IMG/VR virus record: IMGVR_UViG_3300020020_000031
Location: 1-61,315 of that record
Length of the DNA stretch: 61,315 nt
Reading direction: 5' to 3' (one strand)
Source: a virus
Lineage: Duplodnaviria > Caudoviricetes
The notes beneath the pieces are model-generated. The model was given only the letters and a program-made list of their open reading frames with translations. It was not told the origin of the DNA and made no database searches. Numbering within the stretch: position 1 is the stretch's first letter; the number at the start of each line of letters is the position of its first letter. Of the stretch, positions 1 to 61,315 are shown one piece after another. The position numbers were made by a program, and so were the translations under genes.

Positions 1-138
1 CCGGAACTCCGTAAGAACGACCTCGTGGTGCATGAGTACCCGCAGATCTTCTCTCGTGAGTGGGGCGCTGTGATCGCGGACGAGTCCGACCGCTCTCTCC
101 TCCGGTTATCCGGCACGCCTACCCAAACGCGTCAAGGG
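1..138. repeat. Terminal direct repeat, copy 1 (circular-assembly overlap)
   Basis: 1-138 is identical to 61178-61315 except position 12 (T) vs 61189 (G), a synonymous CGT/CGG Arg change in the helicase frame. Confidence 0.97.
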
Positions 139-11513: not shown

Positions 11514-12043
11514 CCATTCAAGACCTATTCCTGTGGGGAATGGACCGGGTAGTCCCGCAGTTACTGACTCCGCCGAAGGGAGTACAGATCAATCTGGGTC
11601 CGGGTAACGTCAAGAACATTCCAAATACGGTCGGGGTCGGTAGGTTGCACGAACTGAAGACGGAGATCGAGTGGGAGTTCCCGGAGCCGATCCCATTTGA
11701 AGATGGAACCGTCTCGGCCGTGCACGCCTATCACTTCATGGAGCACTTCTCCGGAGAGGATTGTCTGAAGATCCTGAGGGAGATGCAGCGAGTTCTCATC
11801 CCGGGCGGAGTTGCTTTCATCTGTACTCCGTATCCGGATACTCCGGGGTACTGGCGCGCTCTAGACCATAAGAGCGCTTGGTGCGAGGAGACTTGGAACT
11901 GGGTCTTCGAAAACCCATACTACGACGGAGGCGCTGAAGTACCATGGGAACTACGGCTACACGCTTGCTTCATCATGGGAATAGTAGAGCGCAACCGGGC
12001 GCTATTCTCTCAGCTGATCAAGAAGCATTCCTGGACCCGGTAG
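11507..12043 (+). CDS. Class I SAM-dependent methyltransferase
   Basis: INLGPG, IPFEDGTV..V.AYHFMEH, LREMQRVLIPGG. Confidence 0.85.
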   Translation: MVTIQDLFLWGMDRVVPQLLTPPKGVQINLGPGNVKNIPNTVGVGRLHELKTEIEWEFPEPIPFEDGTVSAVHAYHFMEHFSGEDCLKILREMQRVLIPGGVAFICTPYPDTPGYWRALDHKSAWCEETWNWVFENPYYDGGAEVPWELRLHACFIMGIVERNRALFSQLIKKHSWTR

Positions 12044-14259
12044 AGATCCTGTGGGCCTGGCTCCGAGAGGGATGGCGGTACCGCCTCCGGCAGGGGAACA
12101 CCCGCCTCAAGACCCACCAGCCGGAGTACCTGGAGCAATTGCAACAAGAGACCGAGCTAGTTATATCCAAGGACTTCGCCAGCTACTTCTTGCTGGTGTC
12201 GGATATTGTCCGCTGGGCAAAGGACCACGGGATTGCGGTCGGTCCCGGTCGCGGTAGCTCTGCGGCTAGCCTTGACTGTTATCTACTTCGCATTACCGAG
12301 CCAGATCCTCTAATGTTCCCATTGACAGACTTCACCCGCTTCATAGACCCCACCCGCGTGGATCTCCCGGACATAGACGTTGACTTTGATGACGTGCGCC
12401 GCCATGAGGTCCGGGAGTACGCGGTATCGCGGTGGGGCGAGGAGAGCGTTGCCAACATCGGAACCTTTACCAAATACAAAGGCAGGAACTCCATCACGGA
12501 CGTTGGGCGAGTATACGCGATCCCGCCCGGGCCGTTGGCAGTGGTCAAGGGAATGATCATCGAGCGCTCGGGCGGAGACTCTCGTGCGGACGCTAGTCTT
12601 GAGGACACCTTTGCTAGCTTCCCTCCGGCGGCGGAAGTCCTGGCGCTATACCCCAAGCTACAGATGGCGGTTGAGCTTGAGGGTAACTACCGGGGTATGA
12701 GTACCCATGCGGCCGGCTTGGTGATCTCCGATACGCCTATTGCTGACGTATGTGCGATGTACTCTCGTCTGGTTCATGGCCGACCAATTGCGGCCGTAGC
12801 AGTCGACAAGAAAGATGCTGAGTACCTGGGATTGATGAAGATTGATGTCCTGGGACTGACCACCATGGGCGAGATCGCAGAGATGTTGCAGCTGACCGGG
12901 ATGACGCTGGAGGAGTTGTACGCGCTCCCGTTTGACGATGAGCTTACGTTTGCCGCGTTCCAACGGGCGGACGTCATAGGCATATTCCAGTTCGAGGGGC
13001 GCGCTACCCGCCTGGTTTGCCGGGAGGTCAAGCCGGAGGACATCTATGAACTCATTCACGTCAACGCGCTCTCTCGCCCAGGTCCGTTGTTCTCCGGAAC
13101 GACTACCGAGTTCATTAACATCAAGCGCGGACTTATGGAGATCCCTCTGATCCATCCCATCCTGGATCGGATAGCGGCTCCCACGCGCGGACAGATCATC
13201 TATCAAGAGCAAGTGCTGCATTCCTTGGCGGAGTTTGGTGGATTGCCGGTCCAGCGGGTCCATGATATCCGGAAGATCATCAGCCAGAAACTGGGAGAGG
13301 CGCAGTTCAATGCCTCCTCGGAAAACTTCATAACTGGTGCAATGGAACGGAACAACGTCTCGCGCGAGGTAGCCTTCAAGGTTTGGGAGCGTGTTGTGAC
13401 CTCCGCCTCCTATGCGTTCGTCTATAGCCACTCGCTCTCGTACAGCATCATCGGGTATTGGTGTCAATGGTTCAAGCAGCATTACCCTACGGAGTTCTAC
13501 CAAGTCAAACTGGGGCGGACCTCGGACAATCAGCGACCCATACTAGTGAGGGATGCAGAACGGCACGGAGTCCGGGTCAAAGGGGTGACGCTAGGCAAGA
13601 GCGCTATTGGTTGGACGTCTCCGCGGAACGGCGAGCTAGTGGCGGGTTATGAGACCCTACCCGGAGTAGGGCCGGTCGTGGCCGCCAAGATATCCAAGAC
13701 GGAGGCGGAGCGCGGCGGATTCACTCAGGTGGAGGAGTTGTTGACGGTCCCTGGTATTGGACCCAAGACCTTGGAGAAGATGCGGCCACTTGTGAACGTG
13801 GAGGACCCATTCGGACTCCGACGCCTTGAGGAGGATATGGGCCGCGTACGCAAATGGATCCCTACGGCCGGACTGCCTACCCCGACGCATGTCTCTGATG
13901 AGCTACTGGACGTTAGTGAAATGGAGACGGTATTTCTGGGATTTGTGTTGGAGCGGAACTACCAAGACTATGTGGAGAACAAGAGAGCGCGCTACGGGAC
14001 GGAGGTCGCCGACATCATCAAGGAGATGCGGCGCCCGGACCTCAAGACGAGCGTGGTCCTACGCTGCGTAGACGATGGAGATGAAGATGTGTACGTACGG
14101 ATCAACCGCTACGATTTCCCAAATCTCAAGAGCCGTATAGACGGCATAGTGGTGGGTCGGGACATGGTCCTCGTCCGAGGTCGCAAGAGCGATAAGGTGG
14201 CAGCATTCGGAATCTCTGTGCAGACGAAGTGGCTGGTTCCCATTGATCCCAACGATTAA
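11944..14259 (+). CDS. dnaE: DNA polymerase III alpha catalytic core (split DnaE, C part); start codon uncertain
   Basis: FASYFL, GPGRGSSAAS, PDIDVDF, HAAG, KIDVLGL, GIFQFE, RPGP, YQEQV, HhH motifs and C-terminal OB fold. Confidence 0.93.
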   Translation: MGTTATRLLHHGNSRAQPGAILSADQEAFLDPVEILWAWLREGWRYRLRQGNTRLKTHQPEYLEQLQQETELVISKDFASYFLLVSDIVRWAKDHGIAVGPGRGSSAASLDCYLLRITEPDPLMFPLTDFTRFIDPTRVDLPDIDVDFDDVRRHEVREYAVSRWGEESVANIGTFTKYKGRNSITDVGRVYAIPPGPLAVVKGMIIERSGGDSRADASLEDTFASFPPAAEVLALYPKLQMAVELEGNYRGMSTHAAGLVISDTPIADVCAMYSRLVHGRPIAAVAVDKKDAEYLGLMKIDVLGLTTMGEIAEMLQLTGMTLEELYALPFDDELTFAAFQRADVIGIFQFEGRATRLVCREVKPEDIYELIHVNALSRPGPLFSGTTTEFINIKRGLMEIPLIHPILDRIAAPTRGQIIYQEQVLHSLAEFGGLPVQRVHDIRKIISQKLGEAQFNASSENFITGAMERNNVSREVAFKVWERVVTSASYAFVYSHSLSYSIIGYWCQWFKQHYPTEFYQVKLGRTSDNQRPILVRDAERHGVRVKGVTLGKSAIGWTSPRNGELVAGYETLPGVGPVVAAKISKTEAERGGFTQVEELLTVPGIGPKTLEKMRPLVNVEDPFGLRRLEEDMGRVRKWIPTAGLPTPTHVSDELLDVSEMETVFLGFVLERNYQDYVENKRARYGTEVADIIKEMRRPDLKTSVVLRCVDDGDEDVYVRINRYDFPNLKSRIDGIVVGRDMVLVRGRKSDKVAAFGISVQTKWLVPIDPND

Positions 14260-14279
14260 AAGAATCTTGCCTAGTACAC

Positions 14280-14308
14280 TAGCCCCACCGCCCGGTATCG
14301 GAGAGAAT
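14280..14308 (+). promoter_or_regulatory. Candidate promoter upstream of the Tas operon
   Basis: TAGCCC-N17-GAGAAT; shares CTAGCCCCACC with the promoter at 3378. Confidence 0.4.
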
Positions 14309-14385
14309 CAGTTTGCTAGTCCGATTTTGCGAGGAGGGGAGAGGGATGGTCTAGGGCGAACCGGCTCAGGAACACTGATGAAAAT

Positions 14386-14420
14386 TACAGGAGGCGAGCC
14401 CTGGAACTCGCCTCCTGTTT
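14386..14420. terminator. Hairpin (terminator or leader structure)
   Basis: ACAGGAGGCGAG / CTCGCCTCCTGT perfect 12-bp stem. Confidence 0.65.
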
Positions 14421-14456
14421 GCTGGAAAACTGACGAAGATCCTTTAAGGAGAAACG

Positions 14457-14825
14457 GTGGCTCCGGGAGATGCGGTGGAGGAAATGAAGCGTGCCCTACA
14501 GGGAGATCCGGATCTGCTGCCCGTATTCCGGGCGGGCGAGAATCTTACCATTCAACGCGATGTCAAGGGACAGAACGTCCTGATGGTGGTGGAGGCGCGT
14601 GACCCTTGCTCCCTCGGCCCGCATATGATGCTCCTTCGCGCTACCATGAAGACGTGGGGCGTATCGTCCTATGCAGACGGACGGGTGGCCGCGCAACGAG
14701 ATTCGATCGACCGCCTACTGAAGGAACGGGAGCAAGTCCTGAAACTTGCAATCAAGTACGGGGCGACGGAGATCATCGATCTTCTAACCGCGCCAAGAGA
14801 GGGAGCCGAAAGTGAGCAACTTTGA
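14457..14825 (+). CDS. Hypothetical protein
   Basis: AAGGAG RBS; C-terminal coiled coil. Confidence 0.65.
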   Translation: MAPGDAVEEMKRALQGDPDLLPVFRAGENLTIQRDVKGQNVLMVVEARDPCSLGPHMMLLRATMKTWGVSSYADGRVAAQRDSIDRLLKEREQVLKLAIKYGATEIIDLLTAPREGAESEQL

Positions 14826-15291
14826 CCTGCAACAGCTAGTAAAAGATGTACTGGAGAATTCGGAACTGAACGATCCGCGCGATATCGCAGCCGAGGTGTC
14901 TCGACAAACTCCATCCAAGGTTCTCCGTGAGGCTTATGAGATTGCGCTGGTGGACTACGTACGGAACGTCAGTATCAACAATACCCGATCTAACCCGATC
15001 ATTCGTGGAAGGACCCCGCGAATCAAGACGGGCTCCGCCAAGCGGATTGGGATTCGCGACTGGTGGCAGCGAGCGATGCGGGATCGGGTCTATATCGACT
15101 CCAACCAGAAGATCTGGAAGCCTCTTGGGGATTGCGGCTTTGATGACCTAATGCTGGCTGCCGACAGCCGGCGTGCCAAGGCCGATGCAATCAACGCCAA
15201 GGCTGATCAATTCGAGCGACTTGCGAATCTACTCAAAGAGTATGGTGTGGATTGCGTCTCCGAGCTTCCTCGTGAGGCCATCGATGCCTAA
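14812..15291 (+). CDS. Conserved-looking hypothetical protein, candidate Tas partner
   Basis: AGAGAGGGAG RBS; its stop overlaps the Tas start; SAK..GIRDWW and WK.LGDC..DDL motifs. Confidence 0.75.
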   Translation: MSNFDLQQLVKDVLENSELNDPRDIAAEVSRQTPSKVLREAYEIALVDYVRNVSINNTRSNPIIRGRTPRIKTGSAKRIGIRDWWQRAMRDRVYIDSNQKIWKPLGDCGFDDLMLAADSRRAKADAINAKADQFERLANLLKEYGVDCVSELPREAIDA

Positions 15292-16402
15292 GAAGACTCC
15301 TGGCCGGGCCAATAACGGCCCGATGCCCATACGCGCCTCGCCCGGCCAGGGCAAGACTCTCGGGAAGACCACAACCCCAACTACAACCATAGCCAATTCG
15401 CCTTCCCGGGACAAGACTCCACGTCAGGCCAGCGAGCATCCGAAGCCCATGGGCGGCTCGCCTGACGTGGACCTATTCGAACCCACTCTAGCCCTGTCCG
15501 CTGATGTTCTGGATGACCTGGAGCAAACCAGGATCGCTAACGAGAATCGGCTCCGCCAGCTTGTTCGATCTGAGGCCGACAGCGACGGAGAGGAGCGCGG
15601 CTTTGGACTGGATGACACCAATCCTGTCGTGGCCGCACTCCAGAAGATGATTGCTGGACTCTTCGAGATTGAGGGGAAAGCTGTACTCAATCTTGAGAAG
15701 GTGATGAAAGCGCACCCTCTCGGGGAGTGGCAGAGAGCGCAGCACGGAATTGGCGCTAAACAATGCGCACGCCTTATAGCCGCTATCGGGGACCCATACA
15801 TCAGACCGGCATACGCGATCGAGAACGAAGACGGGACTGTTACGGAGGTCCCAGCCGCTCCGCGTACCGTGTCGCAACTTTGGGCCTATTCCGGCTATCA
15901 CACACTCCCCATCGGCCAGGCGCGAGACGATACCCATATAATAGTCGCCGATGGGGGCAAACTCCCGACCAGCAGCCATCTTACCTTCGAAACCCACAAG
16001 GGCACCGCTGCTGTTCGGGGCAAGTCCGGCAACCGGAGCCAGAGTCCCTCCGATCCCCATCCACCATTCGCTTCGGTTGCCGCAAAACGTAAGAAAGGCG
16101 AACGCGCCAATTGGTCCGCTGACGCCAAGATGCGTGCATTCCTTATTGCAGAGAAAACGGTTCAGCTAGGAAAGGCGGTCGACAGCCCGTACTATGAGGC
16201 GTATGCAAAGCGCAAGGCTAACACAGAAGGTCGGACCCATGTTGCGCCTTGTGTCCGTTGCGGGCCTAGTGGGAAGCCTGCCTTGAAAGGTTCCGTATGG
16301 TCGGACGGTCACCGCCACGCCGACGCGCTCCGTATTGTTGCCAAGGAGATCCTGAAGGGCCTCTGGATAGAGGCGAAGAGGCTTCACGAGGAGGAGAAAT
16401 GA
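15284..16402 (+). CDS. Tas-like (TasA-type) Nop-domain protein related to the IS110 transposase C-terminus, with no nuclease domain
   Basis: Coiled coil (DDLEQTRIANENRL), HPLGEW....GIG...ARLIA.IGDP, SQLWAYSG, KRKKG...NWS, SPYYEAY..RK, H..ALR.VAKEIL..LW. No DEDD RuvC or HNH domain. Start could instead be 15449 or 15467. Confidence 0.8.
   Translation: MPKKTPGRANNGPMPIRASPGQGKTLGKTTTPTTTIANSPSRDKTPRQASEHPKPMGGSPDVDLFEPTLALSADVLDDLEQTRIANENRLRQLVRSEADSDGEERGFGLDDTNPVVAALQKMIAGLFEIEGKAVLNLEKVMKAHPLGEWQRAQHGIGAKQCARLIAAIGDPYIRPAYAIENEDGTVTEVPAAPRTVSQLWAYSGYHTLPIGQARDDTHIIVADGGKLPTSSHLTFETHKGTAAVRGKSGNRSQSPSDPHPPFASVAAKRKKGERANWSADAKMRAFLIAEKTVQLGKAVDSPYYEAYAKRKANTEGRTHVAPCVRCGPSGKPALKGSVWSDGHRHADALRIVAKEILKGLWIEAKRLHEEEK
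15293..15471 (+). ncRNA. TIGR-like guide array 1 (three stem-closed dual-spacer units, 60-nt period)
   Basis: CCA at 15309/15369/15429. Spacer pairs: ATAACGGCC+TACGCGCCT, CAACCCCAA+TAGCCAATT, GCGAGCATC+TGGGCGGCT. Central repeats CGATGCCCA/CTACAACCA/CGAAGCCCA. Linker AAGACTC. Flanking 11-12 bp stems. Confidence 0.85.
15905..16082 (+). ncRNA. TIGR-like guide array 2 (three units) embedded in frame inside the Tas coding sequence
   Basis: CCA at 15916/15976/16039. Spacer pairs: GGCGCGAGA+TATAATAGT, TCTTACCTT+CAAGGGCAC, GAGTCCCTC+TCCACCATT. Central repeats CGATACCCA/CGAAACCCA/CGATCCCCA. Flanking 10-13 bp stems. Confidence 0.85.
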
Positions 16403-16505
16403 ATCAATGGGTTGTGGCGTTCCTAATCTTCTGGTTGGGAACCGGAGCGCTTACTGTGGCGAACAACTTCGCCAACGTCCTCAAAGAAAAGAACAAGAGG
16501 CTGCG

Positions 16506-17678
16506 ATGAACGAACCGGCTTGGTTGACCGAGCACCGCGAATCTAAGTCCCTGTTGCAACTCCTGGCACCTCTATTCTCCGGCCACGAGGGGTTGGCGGA
16601 TCAGGAGTTAGACAATCTTGTCCATGTGGCGGAGACTGCGTTCAACAACCACTCCAAGAACACCGGGGAGCACGTCTCGCCATTCGATACCGGCATCGTT
16701 CGGGTAGGAACGGATGGTCTGGAGGTCCGGTTGCTCCAGGGCATTAACTTCGCCGGCCTCAAGCAGGTTATAGCAAAGGGAGTTCGCGCCACAATTGGGA
16801 ACCCTCGTCCGCAACGCTGGACTCCGCCAAGCCTTATGTCAGATCACCAGACGGTCTCCGACGAAGAGTGGCAGGAGATGTTCCGGGGTGGACTCCAAGC
16901 CGCGCTGGAGTCCCAGACGATTGTCTTTGAGGTCTGGGGCGCGTCCCGTGTCCTGACGCACCAGTTGGTTCGCAGTCGCCGCGCGGGATTCCACCAGCAG
17001 AGCCAGCGATCTACCTGGTACGGCGACCAACCTGAGGTACGGATGCCGGAGACCGTATGGCGCGCTGGCCATGTGGTTCGGGAGAGGTGGAGACAAAGCT
17101 ACTTTGCTGCGTGGGATGCGTACAGGAAAGCTTGCGACGCAGGAGTGCCGTACGAGGATGCGCGGTACATCCTCCCGGAAGGAACCGTCAACTACATCCA
17201 GTGCGAGTACACCATTCGGGAGTTCATGGCGGTCTACGCCTACCGGGGGTGCTCAATGTTCCTCCGGGAAATGGTTGAGTGTATGCGGTTGATGCGCGCC
17301 GCGCTCCTGGAGCAGGCTCCCTGGATGGAGCCGTTCGTGAAGGTCTCCTGCGAGACCGGACCCGGTTGCCCAGAGTGCGGCGGTCGTGGTTCATACTTTA
17401 CCGAATGGAGCGATGCAGCCTCGGCTAATCCCGAACTCGATCGAATGGTCCGTTATTACCCGGACCCACCGGATGGTACGGTCGAAATCGAATGCCAGAC
17501 CTGCCACGGAACAGGCGGTCGCAAGTGCACCTTCCAGGGCTGGGAGAATGTCGAGCTCGCGTGCGACAAGCCAATGGCCAAAGAAAACAACCGGGTATTT
17601 GTTGCTTCCCCCCGGCTTCGCATCGGAGCTAAAGAACGGCCCGCCACCGACAAAGAAGTAAAGGACTGGCTGTCATGA
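16506..17678 (+). CDS. thyX: Divergent flavin-dependent thymidylate synthase with a zinc-finger insertion
   Basis: ALE...FEV.GASR..THQLVRSR..GF.QQSQR, GVP.EDARYILP; two CxxCxGxG motifs near the C-terminus. Confidence 0.8.
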   Translation: MNEPAWLTEHRESKSLLQLLAPLFSGHEGLADQELDNLVHVAETAFNNHSKNTGEHVSPFDTGIVRVGTDGLEVRLLQGINFAGLKQVIAKGVRATIGNPRPQRWTPPSLMSDHQTVSDEEWQEMFRGGLQAALESQTIVFEVWGASRVLTHQLVRSRRAGFHQQSQRSTWYGDQPEVRMPETVWRAGHVVRERWRQSYFAAWDAYRKACDAGVPYEDARYILPEGTVNYIQCEYTIREFMAVYAYRGCSMFLREMVECMRLMRAALLEQAPWMEPFVKVSCETGPGCPECGGRGSYFTEWSDAASANPELDRMVRYYPDPPDGTVEIECQTCHGTGGRKCTFQGWENVELACDKPMAKENNRVFVASPRLRIGAKERPATDKEVKDWLS

Positions 17679-60401: not shown

Positions 60402-61315
60402 GCGTTCGGGCGGAACTAGCCAAAAGCGGGAGGCGCATCTATCTCAGCACCAGCCGCCCGTTGGCGGGTCTGAAGATGGCCATTCCCGGAGCCGCGTTCA
60501 ACCAAGGCCGATATGGCAAGCCCTATTGGAGCCTACCACTCAGCATGCCGGTCTGCCGGCGCTTACGGGAGGAGTTCGGATCCGAATTGGTGATAGGTCC
60601 GGCGCTTTGGGATTGGGCTAAGACGGAACAAGCGAAGGCGGTCGTCATGTCTACCTTGGCGGCCGCGCGTGACGCTAATCTCCAGATAGTTCCTACGGTA
60701 GCGCCCCGGCTAGCTAAGGCGATGGCGTCCCGCACGTATCAGCGGGTAGGCGCGCGGTTCATAGCGGAGGCGCGCGCCAATGGGGCCGGCTGCCTAGTGG
60801 CGGATCAGCCGGGACTAGGCAAGACGCTGGAAGCGCTAGGCGGAGTGGTAGAGAGCCGGATTGCGGGACCGTATCTGGTTGTTACACCCAAGACCGCTAC
60901 CAATACGGTCTGGGGGGCGGAGATCCCACGCTGGCTGGAAGGCCAGATCGTGGTAACGCTCCCGGACGGAGACGTAACCCGCAACAAGATCAGGACTCCT
61001 CAGCGGGCTCGCCGGGACGCCGTACTGGACTCACTCGCTAGCAGCCCTAGATTGGACGCTACGTGGGTGGTGGTGCATCCTGAGGCCGTTCGTGCAAGGG
61101 TGTACTGGGTCTGCGGCGTATGTGGAAGCGAGACGCCTAAGAAGTATGGCCGGGTAGAGCTCAAGTGCGTTCATGACCCGGAACTCCGGAAGAACGACCT
61201 CGTGGTGCATGAGTACCCGCAGATCTTCTCTCGTGAGTGGGGCGCTGTGATCGCGGACGAGTCCGACCGCTCTCTCCTCCGGTTATCCGGCACGCCTACC
61301 CAAACGCGTCAAGGG
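60398..61315 (+). CDS. SNF2-family helicase, N-terminal part (continues into 1-1290 across the circular junction, about 689 aa in total)
   Basis: Not in the ORF track. Manual translation from GTG 60398 gives RTYQRVG (Q motif), LVADQPGLGKT (Walker A) and LVVTPK. 60398 to 61178 is 780 nt, in frame with position 1. Confidence 0.9.
   Translation, partial: MSVRAELAKSGRRIYLSTSRPLAGLKMAIPGAAFNQGRYGKPYWSLPLSMPVCRRLREEFGSELVIGPALWDWAKTEQAKAVVMSTLAAARDANLQIVPTVAPRLAKAMASRTYQRVGARFIAEARANGAGCLVADQPGLGKTLEALGGVVESRIAGPYLVVTPKTATNTVWGAEIPRWLEGQIVVTLPDGDVTRNKIRTPQRARRDAVLDSLASSPRLDATWVVVHPEAVRARVYWVCGVCGSETPKKYGRVELKCVHDPELRKNDLVVHEYPQIFSREWGAVIADESDRSLLRLSGTPTQTRQG
61178..61315. repeat. Terminal direct repeat, copy 2
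   Basis: Matches 1-138 at 137/138 positions. Confidence 0.97.

What the first reader, a model, noticed from the sequence alone, without database searches (positions are those of the whole stretch)
15299..16082. Each guide unit is closed by its own covarying terminal stem, like a box C/D snoRNA
Seen: the stems differ in sequence but all pair. CCTGGCCGGGC/GCCCGGCCAGG (11 bp); CTCGGGAAGAC/GCCTTCCCGGG (one G-U, one mismatch); TCCACGTCAGGC/GCCTGACGTGGA (12 bp); CCCCATCGGC/GCCGATGGGG (10 bp); CCCGACCAGCAGC/GCTGCTGTTCGGG (one mismatch); CGGCAACCGGAGC/GCTTCGGTTGCCG (one G-U). Linkers resemble CAA(G)ACT. Inference: this is strong evidence of selection on RNA structure, and the linker is a likely processing site. 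Because unit identity is low, CRISPR and tandem-repeat finders would probably miss the arrays.
Basis: seen in the sequence. Interest (0 to 1): 0.8.

Follow-up and report, generated by a model that had tools for sequence, protein, structure and literature searches.

The report
Guide-RNA hairpins inside a phage gene
Six small RNA hairpins, each carrying two short variable guide sequences, are written in frame inside the phage gene for the protein that should bind them; this is a further example of the recently described TIGR-Tas RNA-guided DNA-binding systems.

Summary
Six hairpin units sit at 15298-15471 and 15906-16084: stems of 10-15 bp that differ in sequence, and a loop of exactly 30 nt.

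The loop reads CCA, 9 variable nt, CG(A), 3 nt, CCA, 9 variable nt, CG. That is two 9-nt spacers flanked by box C-like and box D-like motifs. Stem covariation is strong: 92.5% of cells paired against 59% shuffled, and 11 of 12 pairs carry compensatory changes. A model built from 29 units found 350 more beside homologous genes in 79 other viral loci.

All six units lie in frame inside one ORF (15284-16402, +). Its profile matches solved TasR (9MTY, E 2.4e-16) and TasH, and its predicted fold matches them best. It has no nuclease domain.

So this is a stem-loop TIGR array embedded in a tasA gene. TIGR-Tas was described in 2025, and intragenic stem-loop arrays in a September 2026 preprint. It is a new member of a known kind.

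Processing at the linkers is untested here.

No target of the spacers was found.

Side result: in 12 near-identical mycobacteriophage loci the flanks are 98% identical, but the spacers are close to random.

The parts
15284..16402 (+). tasA-like gene (P0001, 372 aa). It has a coiled coil plus a Nop-type C-terminal domain and no nuclease domain. All six guide units lie in frame within it.
   Evidence: ORF and translation. The ATG at 15284 overlaps the stop of the upstream gene (ATGCCTAA), with GAGG 7 nt upstream. phrog_4285 hit at 1.2e-77. The profile of 40 homologs hits TasR 9mty_A at E 2.4e-16 and TasH 21kl_A at 4.4e-5. Foldseek's top matches are 9mty TasR (1.6e-6), then TasH, IS621 and Nop5.
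15298..15351 (+). Guide unit 1. Stem 15298-15309 / 15340-15351, loop 15310-15339. Spacer A 15312-15320 (ATAACGGCC), spacer B 15330-15338 (TACGCGCCT).
   Evidence: CM score 51.4 bits. MFE fold is the stem, z -2.56.
15358..15411 (+). Guide unit 2, the weakest. The stem has one G-U and one mismatch. The inner motifs are CUA and ACCA instead of CGA and CCCA. Loop 15370-15399. Spacer A 15372-15380 (CAACCCCAA), spacer B 15390-15398 (TAGCCAATT).
   Evidence: CM score 41.3 bits. z -3.08. The strict motif search missed it.
15418..15471 (+). Guide unit 3. Stem of 12 perfect pairs, loop 15430-15459. Spacer A 15432-15440 (GCGAGCATC), spacer B 15450-15458 (TGGGCGGCT). Its 3' arm holds an in-frame GTG (15467), which is a possible alternative start for the core protein.
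   Evidence: CM score 50.3 bits. z -3.86.
15906..15957 (+). Guide unit 4, the first of the internal cluster. Loop 15917-15946. Spacer A 15919-15927 (GGCGCGAGA), spacer B 15937-15945 (TATAATAGT).
   Evidence: CM score 51.1 bits. z -2.72.
15963..16020 (+). Guide unit 5. Stem of 14 with one mismatch, loop 15977-16006. Spacer A 15979-15987 (TCTTACCTT), spacer B 15997-16005 (CAAGGGCAC).
   Evidence: CM score 45.3 bits. z -3.34.
16025..16084 (+). Guide unit 6. Core stem 16027-16039 / 16070-16082 with one G-U, loop 16040-16069. Spacer A 16042-16050 (GAGTCCCTC), spacer B 16060-16068 (TCCACCATT).
   Evidence: CM score 45.7 bits. z -4.69.
14812..15291 (+). Conserved upstream neighbour (159 aa, phrog_4604, function unknown). 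It may belong to the same module, but its role is not shown.
   Evidence: phrog_4604 hit at 3e-25 and no Pfam family. A homolog lies just upstream of the tas homolog, on the same strand, in 55 of 83 other loci. The AF2 model has pLDDT 88 and no convincing PDB match.

Best explanation
This is a stem-loop TIGR array (tandem interspaced guide RNAs) written inside its own tasA gene in a soil actinophage-like virus.

Each unit of about 55-60 nt should be transcribed from the + strand as part of the tas message or operon. It would then be cut out at the short linkers and fold into a hairpin. The variable terminal stem closes a 30-nt loop that reads CCA, spacer A (9 nt), CG(A), 3 nt, CCA, spacer B (9 nt), CG.

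A dimer of the Nop-domain protein TasA would hold the two CCA/CG box pairs and present the two spacers. The spacers pair with opposite strands of an 18-bp DNA site. TasA has no nuclease domain, so the expected outcome is RNA-guided DNA binding, meaning repression or blocking, rather than cleavage.

Three units form the 5' end of the ORF (residues 5-63). Three sit in the wedge loop (residues 208-267). Both stretches translate into disordered peptide.

Shown here: the units, their covariation, the motif architecture, the strand, the protein's family and fold, and the same arrangement in many relatives.

Inferred from published work on relatives: transcription and processing, RNP formation, tandem-spacer DNA binding and repression. 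The target is unknown.
For: RNA:
- Six units have loops of exactly 30 nt.
- In 143 distinct units from 79 loci not used for training, columns 15-17 (CCA), 27-28 (CG), 33-35 (CCA) and 45-46 (CG) carry 1.7-2.0 bits. The two 9-nt blocks between them carry 0.01-0.18 bits.
- Covariation is strong.
- The model found 350 matches at E <= 0.001 in those loci. All but 2 of the 300 rows listed are on the tas strand.
- Among the non-Watson-Crick stem positions of 283 distinct units, G-U occurs 104 times and A-C 49 times. This points to an RNA structure read from the + strand.

Protein:
- The profile hits TasR 9MTY at E 2.4e-16 and TasH at 4.4e-5. 9MTY is the TasR RNP.
- Foldseek ranks TasR and TasH first, ahead of IS621 and Nop5.
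- The core has pLDDT above 90, and the unit-encoded residues 1-57 and 210-261 are below 50.
- No family passes Pfam's threshold and there is no nuclease domain.

Insertion site:
- The internal cluster falls between TaTasR residues 213 and 218. That is inside the wedge, G210-K230 (Xu et al. Methods passage).
- In 108 of the 120 listed homologs that carry both anchor motifs, the length of this site clusters near 15, 31, 50, 70, 90 and 110 aa. 104 of the 108 carry an insertion.

Literature:
- Stem-loop arrays with variable palindromic stems and two 8-12-nt spacers flanked by box C/D are described in PMC12045711.
- Xu et al. report arrays inside tas without breaking the frame, a 9-nt inter-spacer loop and TasA acting as a repressor (sections 5, 7, 11 and 13).
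Against: - There is no RNA evidence for this locus. No RNA run was listed, so transcription, processing and the ends of the RNAs are unknown.
- No DNA target was found. The window holds no site with 2 or fewer mismatches to any unit, and the 4 sites with 3 mismatches match the chance rate of 1.8. Scans of the viral collection gave chance-level hits.
- Box D here is CG, not the UG reported for TaTasR and PateTasR.
- The stem-base motif is CUC in 5 of 6 units, not the published CUU.
- Unit 2 has degenerate inner motifs.
- The A3 alignment was fitted to the model, so its pair counts lean towards the structure.
- It is not settled whether the first cluster is translated. The ATG at 15284 and the GTG at 15467 are both possible starts.
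Confidence: 0.9

Rival explanations
1. The hairpins are DNA-level sites. They would be cruciforms or attC-like folded recombination sites used by an IS110-related 'transposase', not guide RNAs.
For: PHROGs labels the family 'transposase', as do some GenBank records. The fold is related to the IS621 recombinase at Foldseek E 0.2-0.4. Stems with variable sequence but conserved structure also typify integron attC sites; that comparison is recalled, not tested.
Against: The protein has no RuvC/DEDD domain and no Pfam transposase hit. Its best structural and sequence matches are TasR and TasH, not IS110. Stem wobble is asymmetric, with G-U 104 against A-C 49. The units lie almost only on the tas strand. 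The two 9-nt blocks are free to vary while CCA/CG are fixed, which is the layout of a guide.
Confidence: 0.04
2. The units are small palindromic mobile elements, of the kind that insert in frame into genes in Rickettsia (recalled). On this reading they have no function of their own.
For: They lie in frame in a coding sequence, they translate into disordered peptide, and their number varies between homologs.
Against: Copies of a mobile element would share their stem sequences. Here the stems differ and covary, and only 2-3-nt motifs at fixed distances are conserved. The units occur only at the tas locus in this genome. They occur beside tas homologs in 56 of 76 loci under a strict motif search.
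Confidence: 0.03
3. Selection acts on a repeated 20-aa peptide linker, and the hairpins are a by-product.
For: The period is 60 nt, or 20 codons, in cluster 1. The frame is open through all six units.
Against: The conserved nucleotide motifs fall in different reading frames in the two clusters. The first C of the unit sits at frame offset 1 in cluster 1 and offset 2 in cluster 2 (coordinates). Relatives use all three offsets: 133, 59 and 9 units. The same units are intergenic in Mycobacterium phage Sumter. The spacer-encoded residues have no conservation.
Confidence: 0.02

Closest known systems
Stem-loop TIGR-TasA systems: PlTasA from a Peromyscus leucopus gut contig and BlTasA from Bifidobacterium longum (PMC12045711; bioRxiv 10.64898/2026.09.09.750476 and 10.64898/2026.08.11.744272)
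   Same: The effector has only a Nop domain. The hairpin units are tandem, with variable palindromic stems. Two spacers of about 9 nt are flanked by box C/D-like motifs, and the inter-spacer loop is 9 nt. Units lie upstream of, downstream of or inside tas without breaking the frame. The internal units map to the wedge loop, as reported for BlTasA.
   Different: Box D is CG here. The stem-base motif is CUC rather than CUU. There are three wedge units, against two reported for BlTasA. The host virus is an uncultured soil actinophage-like virus. The degree of sequence relatedness to PlTasA or BlTasA could not be measured because their sequences were not on hand.
Dual-repeat TIGR-TasR and TIGR-TasH (TaTasR, PDB 9MTY; SpTasH, PDB 9W04)
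   Same: The Nop domain is homologous. Box C is CCA, as in TaTasR. There are two 9-nt spacers, and a tandem-spacer logic is expected.
   Different: Those systems have fixed edge and loop repeats and 36-nt tigRNAs, plus RuvC or HNH nuclease domains. Here each unit has its own long stem and the protein has no nuclease.
Archaeal and eukaryotic box C/D s(no)RNPs (Nop5/Nop56/58, L7Ae, fibrillarin)
   Same: A Nop-domain protein dimer holds a bipartite guide RNA. The RNA has two guide segments bounded by C/D and C'/D' motifs and is closed by a terminal stem.
   Different: There are no canonical C (RUGAUGA) or D (CUGA) boxes; those motifs are recalled. No K-turn/L7Ae partner or methyltransferase is evident, and Rfam gives no match. 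The expected target is DNA, not RNA.
IS110/IS621 bridge RNA recombinases
   Same: The RNA-binding domain is related (Foldseek E 0.2-0.4), and the guide is a structured bispecific RNA.
   Different: There is no RuvC-like DEDD domain and no recombinase function is evident. The locus has many short units instead of one bridge RNA.
CRISPR arrays
   Same: Both are arrays of short variable guide segments encoded next to their effector and processed from a longer transcript.
   Different: There is no conserved direct repeat (TRF gave 0 rows). The spacers are split in two and are 9 nt each. No adaptation genes are present.

Membership tests
TIGR-Tas, stem-loop class (TasA) | Effector with a Nop-type RNA-binding domain homologous to Tas proteins | tested here: met
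   The profile of 40 homologs hits TasR 9mty_A at E 2.4e-16 and TasH at 4.4e-5. Foldseek's top 10 matches are all TasR or TasH chains at E 1.6e-6 to 1.8e-3.
TIGR-Tas, stem-loop class (TasA) | [quoted passage not shown] | tested here: met
   The layout is CCA-N9-CG(A)-N3-CCA-N9-CG. It is present in 5 of 6 window units, and unit 2 is degenerate. Across 143 distinct units the motifs carry 1.7-2.0 bits and the spacers 0.01-0.18 bits.
TIGR-Tas, stem-loop class (TasA) | Variable but consistently palindromic sequences close each unit, in place of edge repeats | tested here: met
   92.5% of cells are paired against 59.2% shuffled, and 11 of 12 pairs are compensatory. In the larger set the figure is 95.3% with 12 of 12 pairs.
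TIGR-Tas, stem-loop class (TasA) | Units lie beside or inside the tas gene on its strand | tested here: met
   All six units lie inside the ORF. In relatives, 201 of 299 strict units lie in the tas open frame, 78 upstream and 20 downstream. All but 2 of the 300 rows listed are on the + strand.
TIGR-Tas, stem-loop class (TasA) | TasA subtype: no HNH or RuvC nuclease domain | tested here: met
   No family passes Pfam's threshold. The residues before the coiled coil are unit-encoded and have pLDDT below 50.
TIGR-Tas, stem-loop class (TasA) | [quoted passage not shown] | tested here: inconclusive
   The window units have CUC (5 of 6) or GUC at that place. The Gordonia and Mycobacterium phage relatives have CUU.
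TIGR-Tas, stem-loop class (TasA) | The array is transcribed and processed into unit-length tigRNAs that the Tas protein binds | not testable with these tools
   No RNA run was available for this virus.
TIGR-Tas, stem-loop class (TasA) | Tandem-spacer recognition of both strands of a DNA target | not testable with these tools
   This needs biochemistry. Searches for candidate sites gave only chance-level matches.
Canonical box C/D s(no)RNA | C box RUGAUGA and D box CUGA forming a K-turn (motifs recalled), recognised by Rfam models | tested here: not met
   Rfam gave 0 matches at E <= 1 over 15000-16500. The conserved motifs are CCA and CG.
CRISPR array | Conserved direct repeats of 25-36 nt separating the spacers | tested here: not met
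   TRF gave 0 rows. Only 2-3-nt motifs are conserved between units.
IS110-family transposase with bridge RNA | N-terminal RuvC-like DEDD domain plus a C-terminal Tnp domain | tested here: not met
   There is no Pfam hit to the IS110 families. There is no folded N-terminal domain. The IS621 match is weak and ranks below TasR and TasH.

The most novel reading that the evidence does not exclude
In this actinophage TasA clade the 9-nt spacers may be rewritten in place far faster than the genome around them.

In 12 near-identical mycobacteriophage loci the flanks are 98% identical and the stems and box motifs barely change. Units 1, 2 and 4 nevertheless carry 7, 8 and 9 different loops. Mean spacer identity is 0.34-0.47, and spacer A and spacer B change independently.

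If this reflects a dedicated spacer-diversifying process, or an arms race with a target, these cultured phages would make two stated open questions testable: how TIGR spacers arise, and what they target.

A second part of the case concerns the units embedded in the coding sequence. Cutting out a guide would destroy the tas message, which would give built-in feedback.
Probability: 0.3. Interest if true: 0.7.

Novelty: new member of a known kind. Interest (0 to 1): 0.38.

Why it matters
The finding shows that a reader working from raw sequence alone picked out a TIGR array, a class of guide-RNA locus that repeat finders miss.

For the field, this locus adds a clean example of guides embedded in the effector's own reading frame, with three units at the 5' end and three in the wedge loop. 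It also ties a very large family to TIGR-Tas: 1530 proteins at E <= 1e-5 among 6377 candidates scored, many of them labelled 'transposase' or 'hypothetical'.

The family includes cultured Mycobacterium and Gordonia phages with laboratory hosts. In those phages the spacers differ between otherwise near-identical genomes. That offers a practical way to ask what TIGR spacers target and how they change, two questions the published papers call open (PMC12045711 discussion passages; Xu et al. section 13).

Tried and rejected
- Pfam on the protein gave only a sub-threshold LIX1 hit at E 0.087.
- blastn of the region against the phage collection found no match.
- Rfam found no match.
- RNA evidence: no RNA holder was listed. 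The laid DNA contigs from two soil samples showed no differences inside the units, so they say nothing about spacer turnover in this lineage.
- Self-targeting was tested on both possible spacer layouts, with gaps of 0-2. There were 0 sites with 2 or fewer mismatches and 4 with 3 mismatches. Two of those four are the units themselves. One hundred spacer shuffles gave a mean of 1.79. The first version of this script timed out.
- External targets: I deduced the layout 'spacer A, gap 0-2, reverse complement of spacer B' from the published 8-nt 3' overhang.
  - Window unit 3 gave 8 stretches in the viral collection. They fall into about 5 unrelated lineages.
  - Two alleles from the mycobacteriophage loci gave 2 stretches each, all in metagenome contigs.
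  - All of this is at chance level. The other five window units were not scanned.
- The upstream neighbour has no PDB sequence match below E 0.4 and no Foldseek match below E 1.5. VIA-align's best Z is 4.7, on a single long helix.
- Complex prediction of TasA (residues 62-372) with the neighbour returned no verdict.
- No sigma-70-like promoter and no + strand terminator-like site was found in 14000-17000. This scan is weak for actinobacterial hosts.
- My regular expressions for units 3 and 5 of the mycobacteriophage loci failed, so those two units are not in the spacer statistics.
Full report
**The observation**

The region 15299-16082 holds six hairpin units in two clusters of three: 15298-15471 and 15906-16084. 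The stem sequences are unrelated to each other.

Short linkers (CAAGAC, CAAGAC, CAAAC, CAAG) join the units.

With a 30-nt loop and at least 9 Watson-Crick pairs, the 61,315-nt window has 18 + strand hairpins. Six of them are these units, packed into 784 nt, and only they share the CA...C loop ends. Each unit's minimum-free-energy fold is the terminal stem (z -2.6 to -4.7), and each cluster folds as three successive hairpins.

Contigs from a second soil sample carry 15882-16252 without a difference. Tandem Repeats Finder reports nothing even at score 30.

**Anatomy of a unit**

When the units are aligned on the loop, the pattern is: stem, CCA, 9 nt, CG(A), 3 nt, CCA, 9 nt, CG, stem. The first C and the last G form the closing pair. 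Unit 2 is degenerate in the inner motifs (CUA, ACCA).

I built a covariance model from 29 units, six from the window and 23 from four GenBank actinophages. In the window it finds only the six (41-51 bits), and the next best place scores 16.5 bits. In 79 IMG/VR loci that were not used for training it finds 350 matches at E <= 0.001. All but 2 of the 300 rows listed are on the strand of the homologous gene.

In the 143 distinct best matches, the CCA, CG, CCA and CG columns carry 1.7-2.0 bits. The two 9-nt blocks carry 0.01-0.18 bits. These blocks are therefore two free 9-nt segments held between fixed motifs, with a 9-nt stretch between them.

**Covariation**

- In the 29-unit seed, 92.5% of cells pair, against 59.2 +/- 1.8% after shuffling (0 of 500 shuffles reach it) and 29-56% when the partner is slid. 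Eleven of 12 pairs change on both sides, with 115 such cells against 32 expected.
- In the 143 independent units the figures are 95.3% against 61.8%, 12 of 12 pairs, and 528 cells against 144. That alignment was fitted to the model, so it leans towards the structure.
- I made an unbiased count on 283 distinct units. They were chosen by the loop motif and by having at least 8 of 10 strict Watson-Crick pairs. The non-Watson-Crick positions comprise 104 G-U, 49 A-C and 79 others. This excess of G-U over A-C is what an RNA helix read from the + strand predicts, and a DNA cruciform does not.

**The gene around the units**

All six units lie in frame in one ORF, 15284-16402 (+), 372 aa. Its ATG overlaps the stop of the upstream gene and has GAGG 7 nt upstream.

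- Cluster 1 encodes residues 5-63, and cluster 2 encodes residues 208-267.
- The conserved nucleotide motifs fall in different reading frames in the two clusters (offset 1 and offset 2; coordinates). Conservation is therefore at the nucleotide level.
- Pfam finds nothing above threshold. PHROGs assigns phrog_4285, labelled 'transposase', at 1.2e-77.
- The family is large. It has 1530 proteins at E <= 1e-5 among 6377 candidates scored, and the 120 listed are 240-607 aa long. In phage GenBank records it occurs in 90 records: 83 Mycobacterium, 5 Gordonia, 1 Arthrobacter and 1 Rhodococcus.

**What the protein is**

A profile of 40 members matches the solved TasR (9mty_A, E 2.4e-16) and TasH (21kl_A, 4.4e-5), and nothing else in the PDB at E <= 10. 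9MTY is the TIGR-TasR complex of Faure et al..

The AlphaFold model has a core with pLDDT above 90, made of two long coiled-coil helices and a helical C-terminal domain. Confidence is low exactly over the unit-encoded residues 1-57 and 210-261. Foldseek ranks TasR and TasH chains first (E 1.6e-6 to 1.8e-3), then the IS621 recombinase (0.2-0.4), then Nop5/Nop56/58. There is no nuclease domain.

The internal cluster falls between TaTasR residues 213 and 218. That is inside the wedge, G210-K230, as defined in the Methods of Xu et al.. I searched 120 homologs for the two anchor motifs that flank this site, and 108 had both. In those 108, the site's length clusters near 15, 31, 50, 70, 90 and 110 aa, which is steps of one unit. 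104 of the 108 carry an insertion.

**Comparison with what is known**

Faure et al. (Science 2025, PMC12045711; I saw passages and section 6) describe TIGR-Tas. It consists of Nop-domain proteins with arrays of dual-spacer guides.

- One class has 'stem-loop arrays'. [quoted passage not shown] They are processed at the linkers.
- Box C of TaTasR is CCA and box D is UG.

Xu et al. (bioRxiv 10.64898/2026.09.09.750476; sections 5, 6, 7, 11 and 13 read, plus passages of 23 and 30) report the following:

- The intragenic units of Bifidobacterium longum TasA map to the wedge loop.
- The inter-spacer loop is mostly 9 nt.
- A CUU at the stem base marks processing.
- TasA acts as an RNA-guided transcriptional repressor.

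Guan et al. (bioRxiv 10.64898/2026.08.11.744272, passages) solved a TasA bound to a stem-loop tigRNA.

The window's locus matches this description feature by feature. It differs in box D (CG) and in the stem-base motif (CUC in 5 of 6 units). It is therefore a new member of a known kind, not a new kind. It is not a canonical box C/D RNA (Rfam gave no match), not a CRISPR array, and not an IS110 element.

**How it most likely works**

The units would be transcribed with tas. No promoter-like or + strand terminator-like site was found in 14000-17000, which is weak evidence. They would then be released at the linkers and bound by a TasA dimer through the two CCA/CG pairs.

The two spacers would pair with opposite strands of an 18-bp site. 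Without a nuclease, the complex would block transcription or another DNA transaction. All steps after the sequence features are inferred from relatives.

Because three units sit inside the coding sequence, release of a guide should cut the tas message. This suggests a trade-off or feedback between guide and protein production. Xu et al. raise the same link.

**Targets**

From the published 8-nt 3' overhang I deduced that a target reads spacer A, then a gap of 0-2, then the reverse complement of spacer B.

- The phage's own genome has no site with 2 or fewer mismatches in either layout. Sites with 3 mismatches occur at the chance rate (4 against 1.79).
- An exact scan of the viral collection for unit 3 gave 8 stretches in about 5 unrelated lineages.
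- Two alleles from mycobacteriophage loci gave 2 stretches each.

None of these stands above chance. Xu et al. state the same difficulty.

**Relatives and a side result**

The same units occur in Gordonia phages Spooky and BENtherdunthat and in Mycobacterium phages Sumter and Rich. They lie at the 5' end of, inside, downstream of or upstream of the homolog. In Sumter they sit in an unannotated gap.

With a strict motif search, 299 units were found in 76 loci, and 56 of those loci have at least one. Of the 299, 201 lie in the tas open frame, 78 upstream and 20 downstream. All three frame offsets are used: 133, 59 and 9 units.

In 11 near-identical IMG/VR loci of the Sumter type, the flanks are 98.2% identical on average (minimum 96%), and the stems and boxes are nearly invariant. 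The spacer columns are only 20-40% identical.

With Sumter added, units 1, 2 and 4 were found in 12 of 12 loci. They have 7, 8 and 9 distinct loops and a mean spacer identity of 0.34-0.47. Spacer A and spacer B change independently. My patterns for units 3 and 5 failed, so those units are left out.

Spooky and BENtherdunthat likewise share stems but not spacers.

A full-text search for 'tigRNA' together with 'hypervariable' found no paper. A search for 'TIGR-Tas' with 'mycobacteriophage' found only Faure et al., where the word stands in a reference title. I could not see the supplements or TIGRSafari, which may already list these loci.

**Context**

The record is a virus of 61,315 nt, estimated 96% complete. 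Its ends repeat: 1-138 matches 61178-61315 at 99%.

The tas gene lies in a replication and nucleotide-metabolism block, between a DnaE-like polymerase (11944-14259) and ThyX (16407-17678). The polymerase is closest to those of Nocardia, Mycobacterium and Gordonia phages, at 47-48% identity.

The gene just upstream (14812-15291, phrog_4604) accompanies tas in 55 of 83 other loci. It has no recognisable fold.

**Verdict**

The object is a stem-loop TIGR array embedded in tasA, which is a known kind. Interest is moderate. It comes mainly from the link to cultured actinophages and from the spacer turnover seen there.

Noticed in passing
L063-L073 (about 1640-1990) and L003 1236-1542: In 12 near-identical Sumter-type mycobacteriophage loci the flanks are about 98% identical and the stems and box motifs are nearly fixed. 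The 9-nt spacers differ almost at random: units 1, 2 and 4 have 7, 8 and 9 distinct loops. Spacer A and spacer B change independently, and units are shared in mosaic patterns between loci.
   Followed up: partly
window 14812-15291 (+): A 159-aa gene of unknown function (phrog_4604) lies upstream, and its stop overlaps the tasA start. A homolog sits just upstream of the tas homolog in 55 of 83 other loci. The AF2 model is confident (pLDDT 88) but matches no solved fold.
   Followed up: partly
P0001 residues 319-345 (window about 16238-16318): In the alignment of 40 homologs H319, C323, C326 and H343 are invariant, and H345 is nearly so (motif H-x3-C-x2-C ... H-x-H). This may be a metal site in the C-terminal domain. 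The aligned TasH stretch lacks the cysteines.
   Followed up: no
L003 1297-1361 and unit 2 of L063-L073: One unit of the mycobacteriophage arrays has a 39-nt loop. The stretch between its spacers contains its own small palindrome (CGGC...GCCG). This resembles the 'secondary hairpin in the loop' described for some stem-loop clades.
   Followed up: no
window 1-138 and 61178-61315: The two ends of the record are a 138-nt direct repeat at 99% identity. The record is probably a complete genome of about 61,177 nt that was either assembled around a circle or carries a terminal repeat.
   Followed up: partly
window 14387-14418: A 14-bp perfect inverted repeat with a 4-nt loop was flagged as terminator-like on the minus strand. 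It lies inside the + strand ORF 14243-14602.
   Followed up: no
window 15467-15469: An in-frame GTG lies in the 3' arm of unit 3, at the point where compact homologs begin (M-x-DLFDP...). The core protein could therefore also start here, which would leave cluster 1 untranslated.
   Followed up: no
L077-L084: The most distant homolog loci (22-30% identity) have no unit that fits the strict CCA/CG motif. Their guides, if any, may use other box motifs.
   Followed up: no
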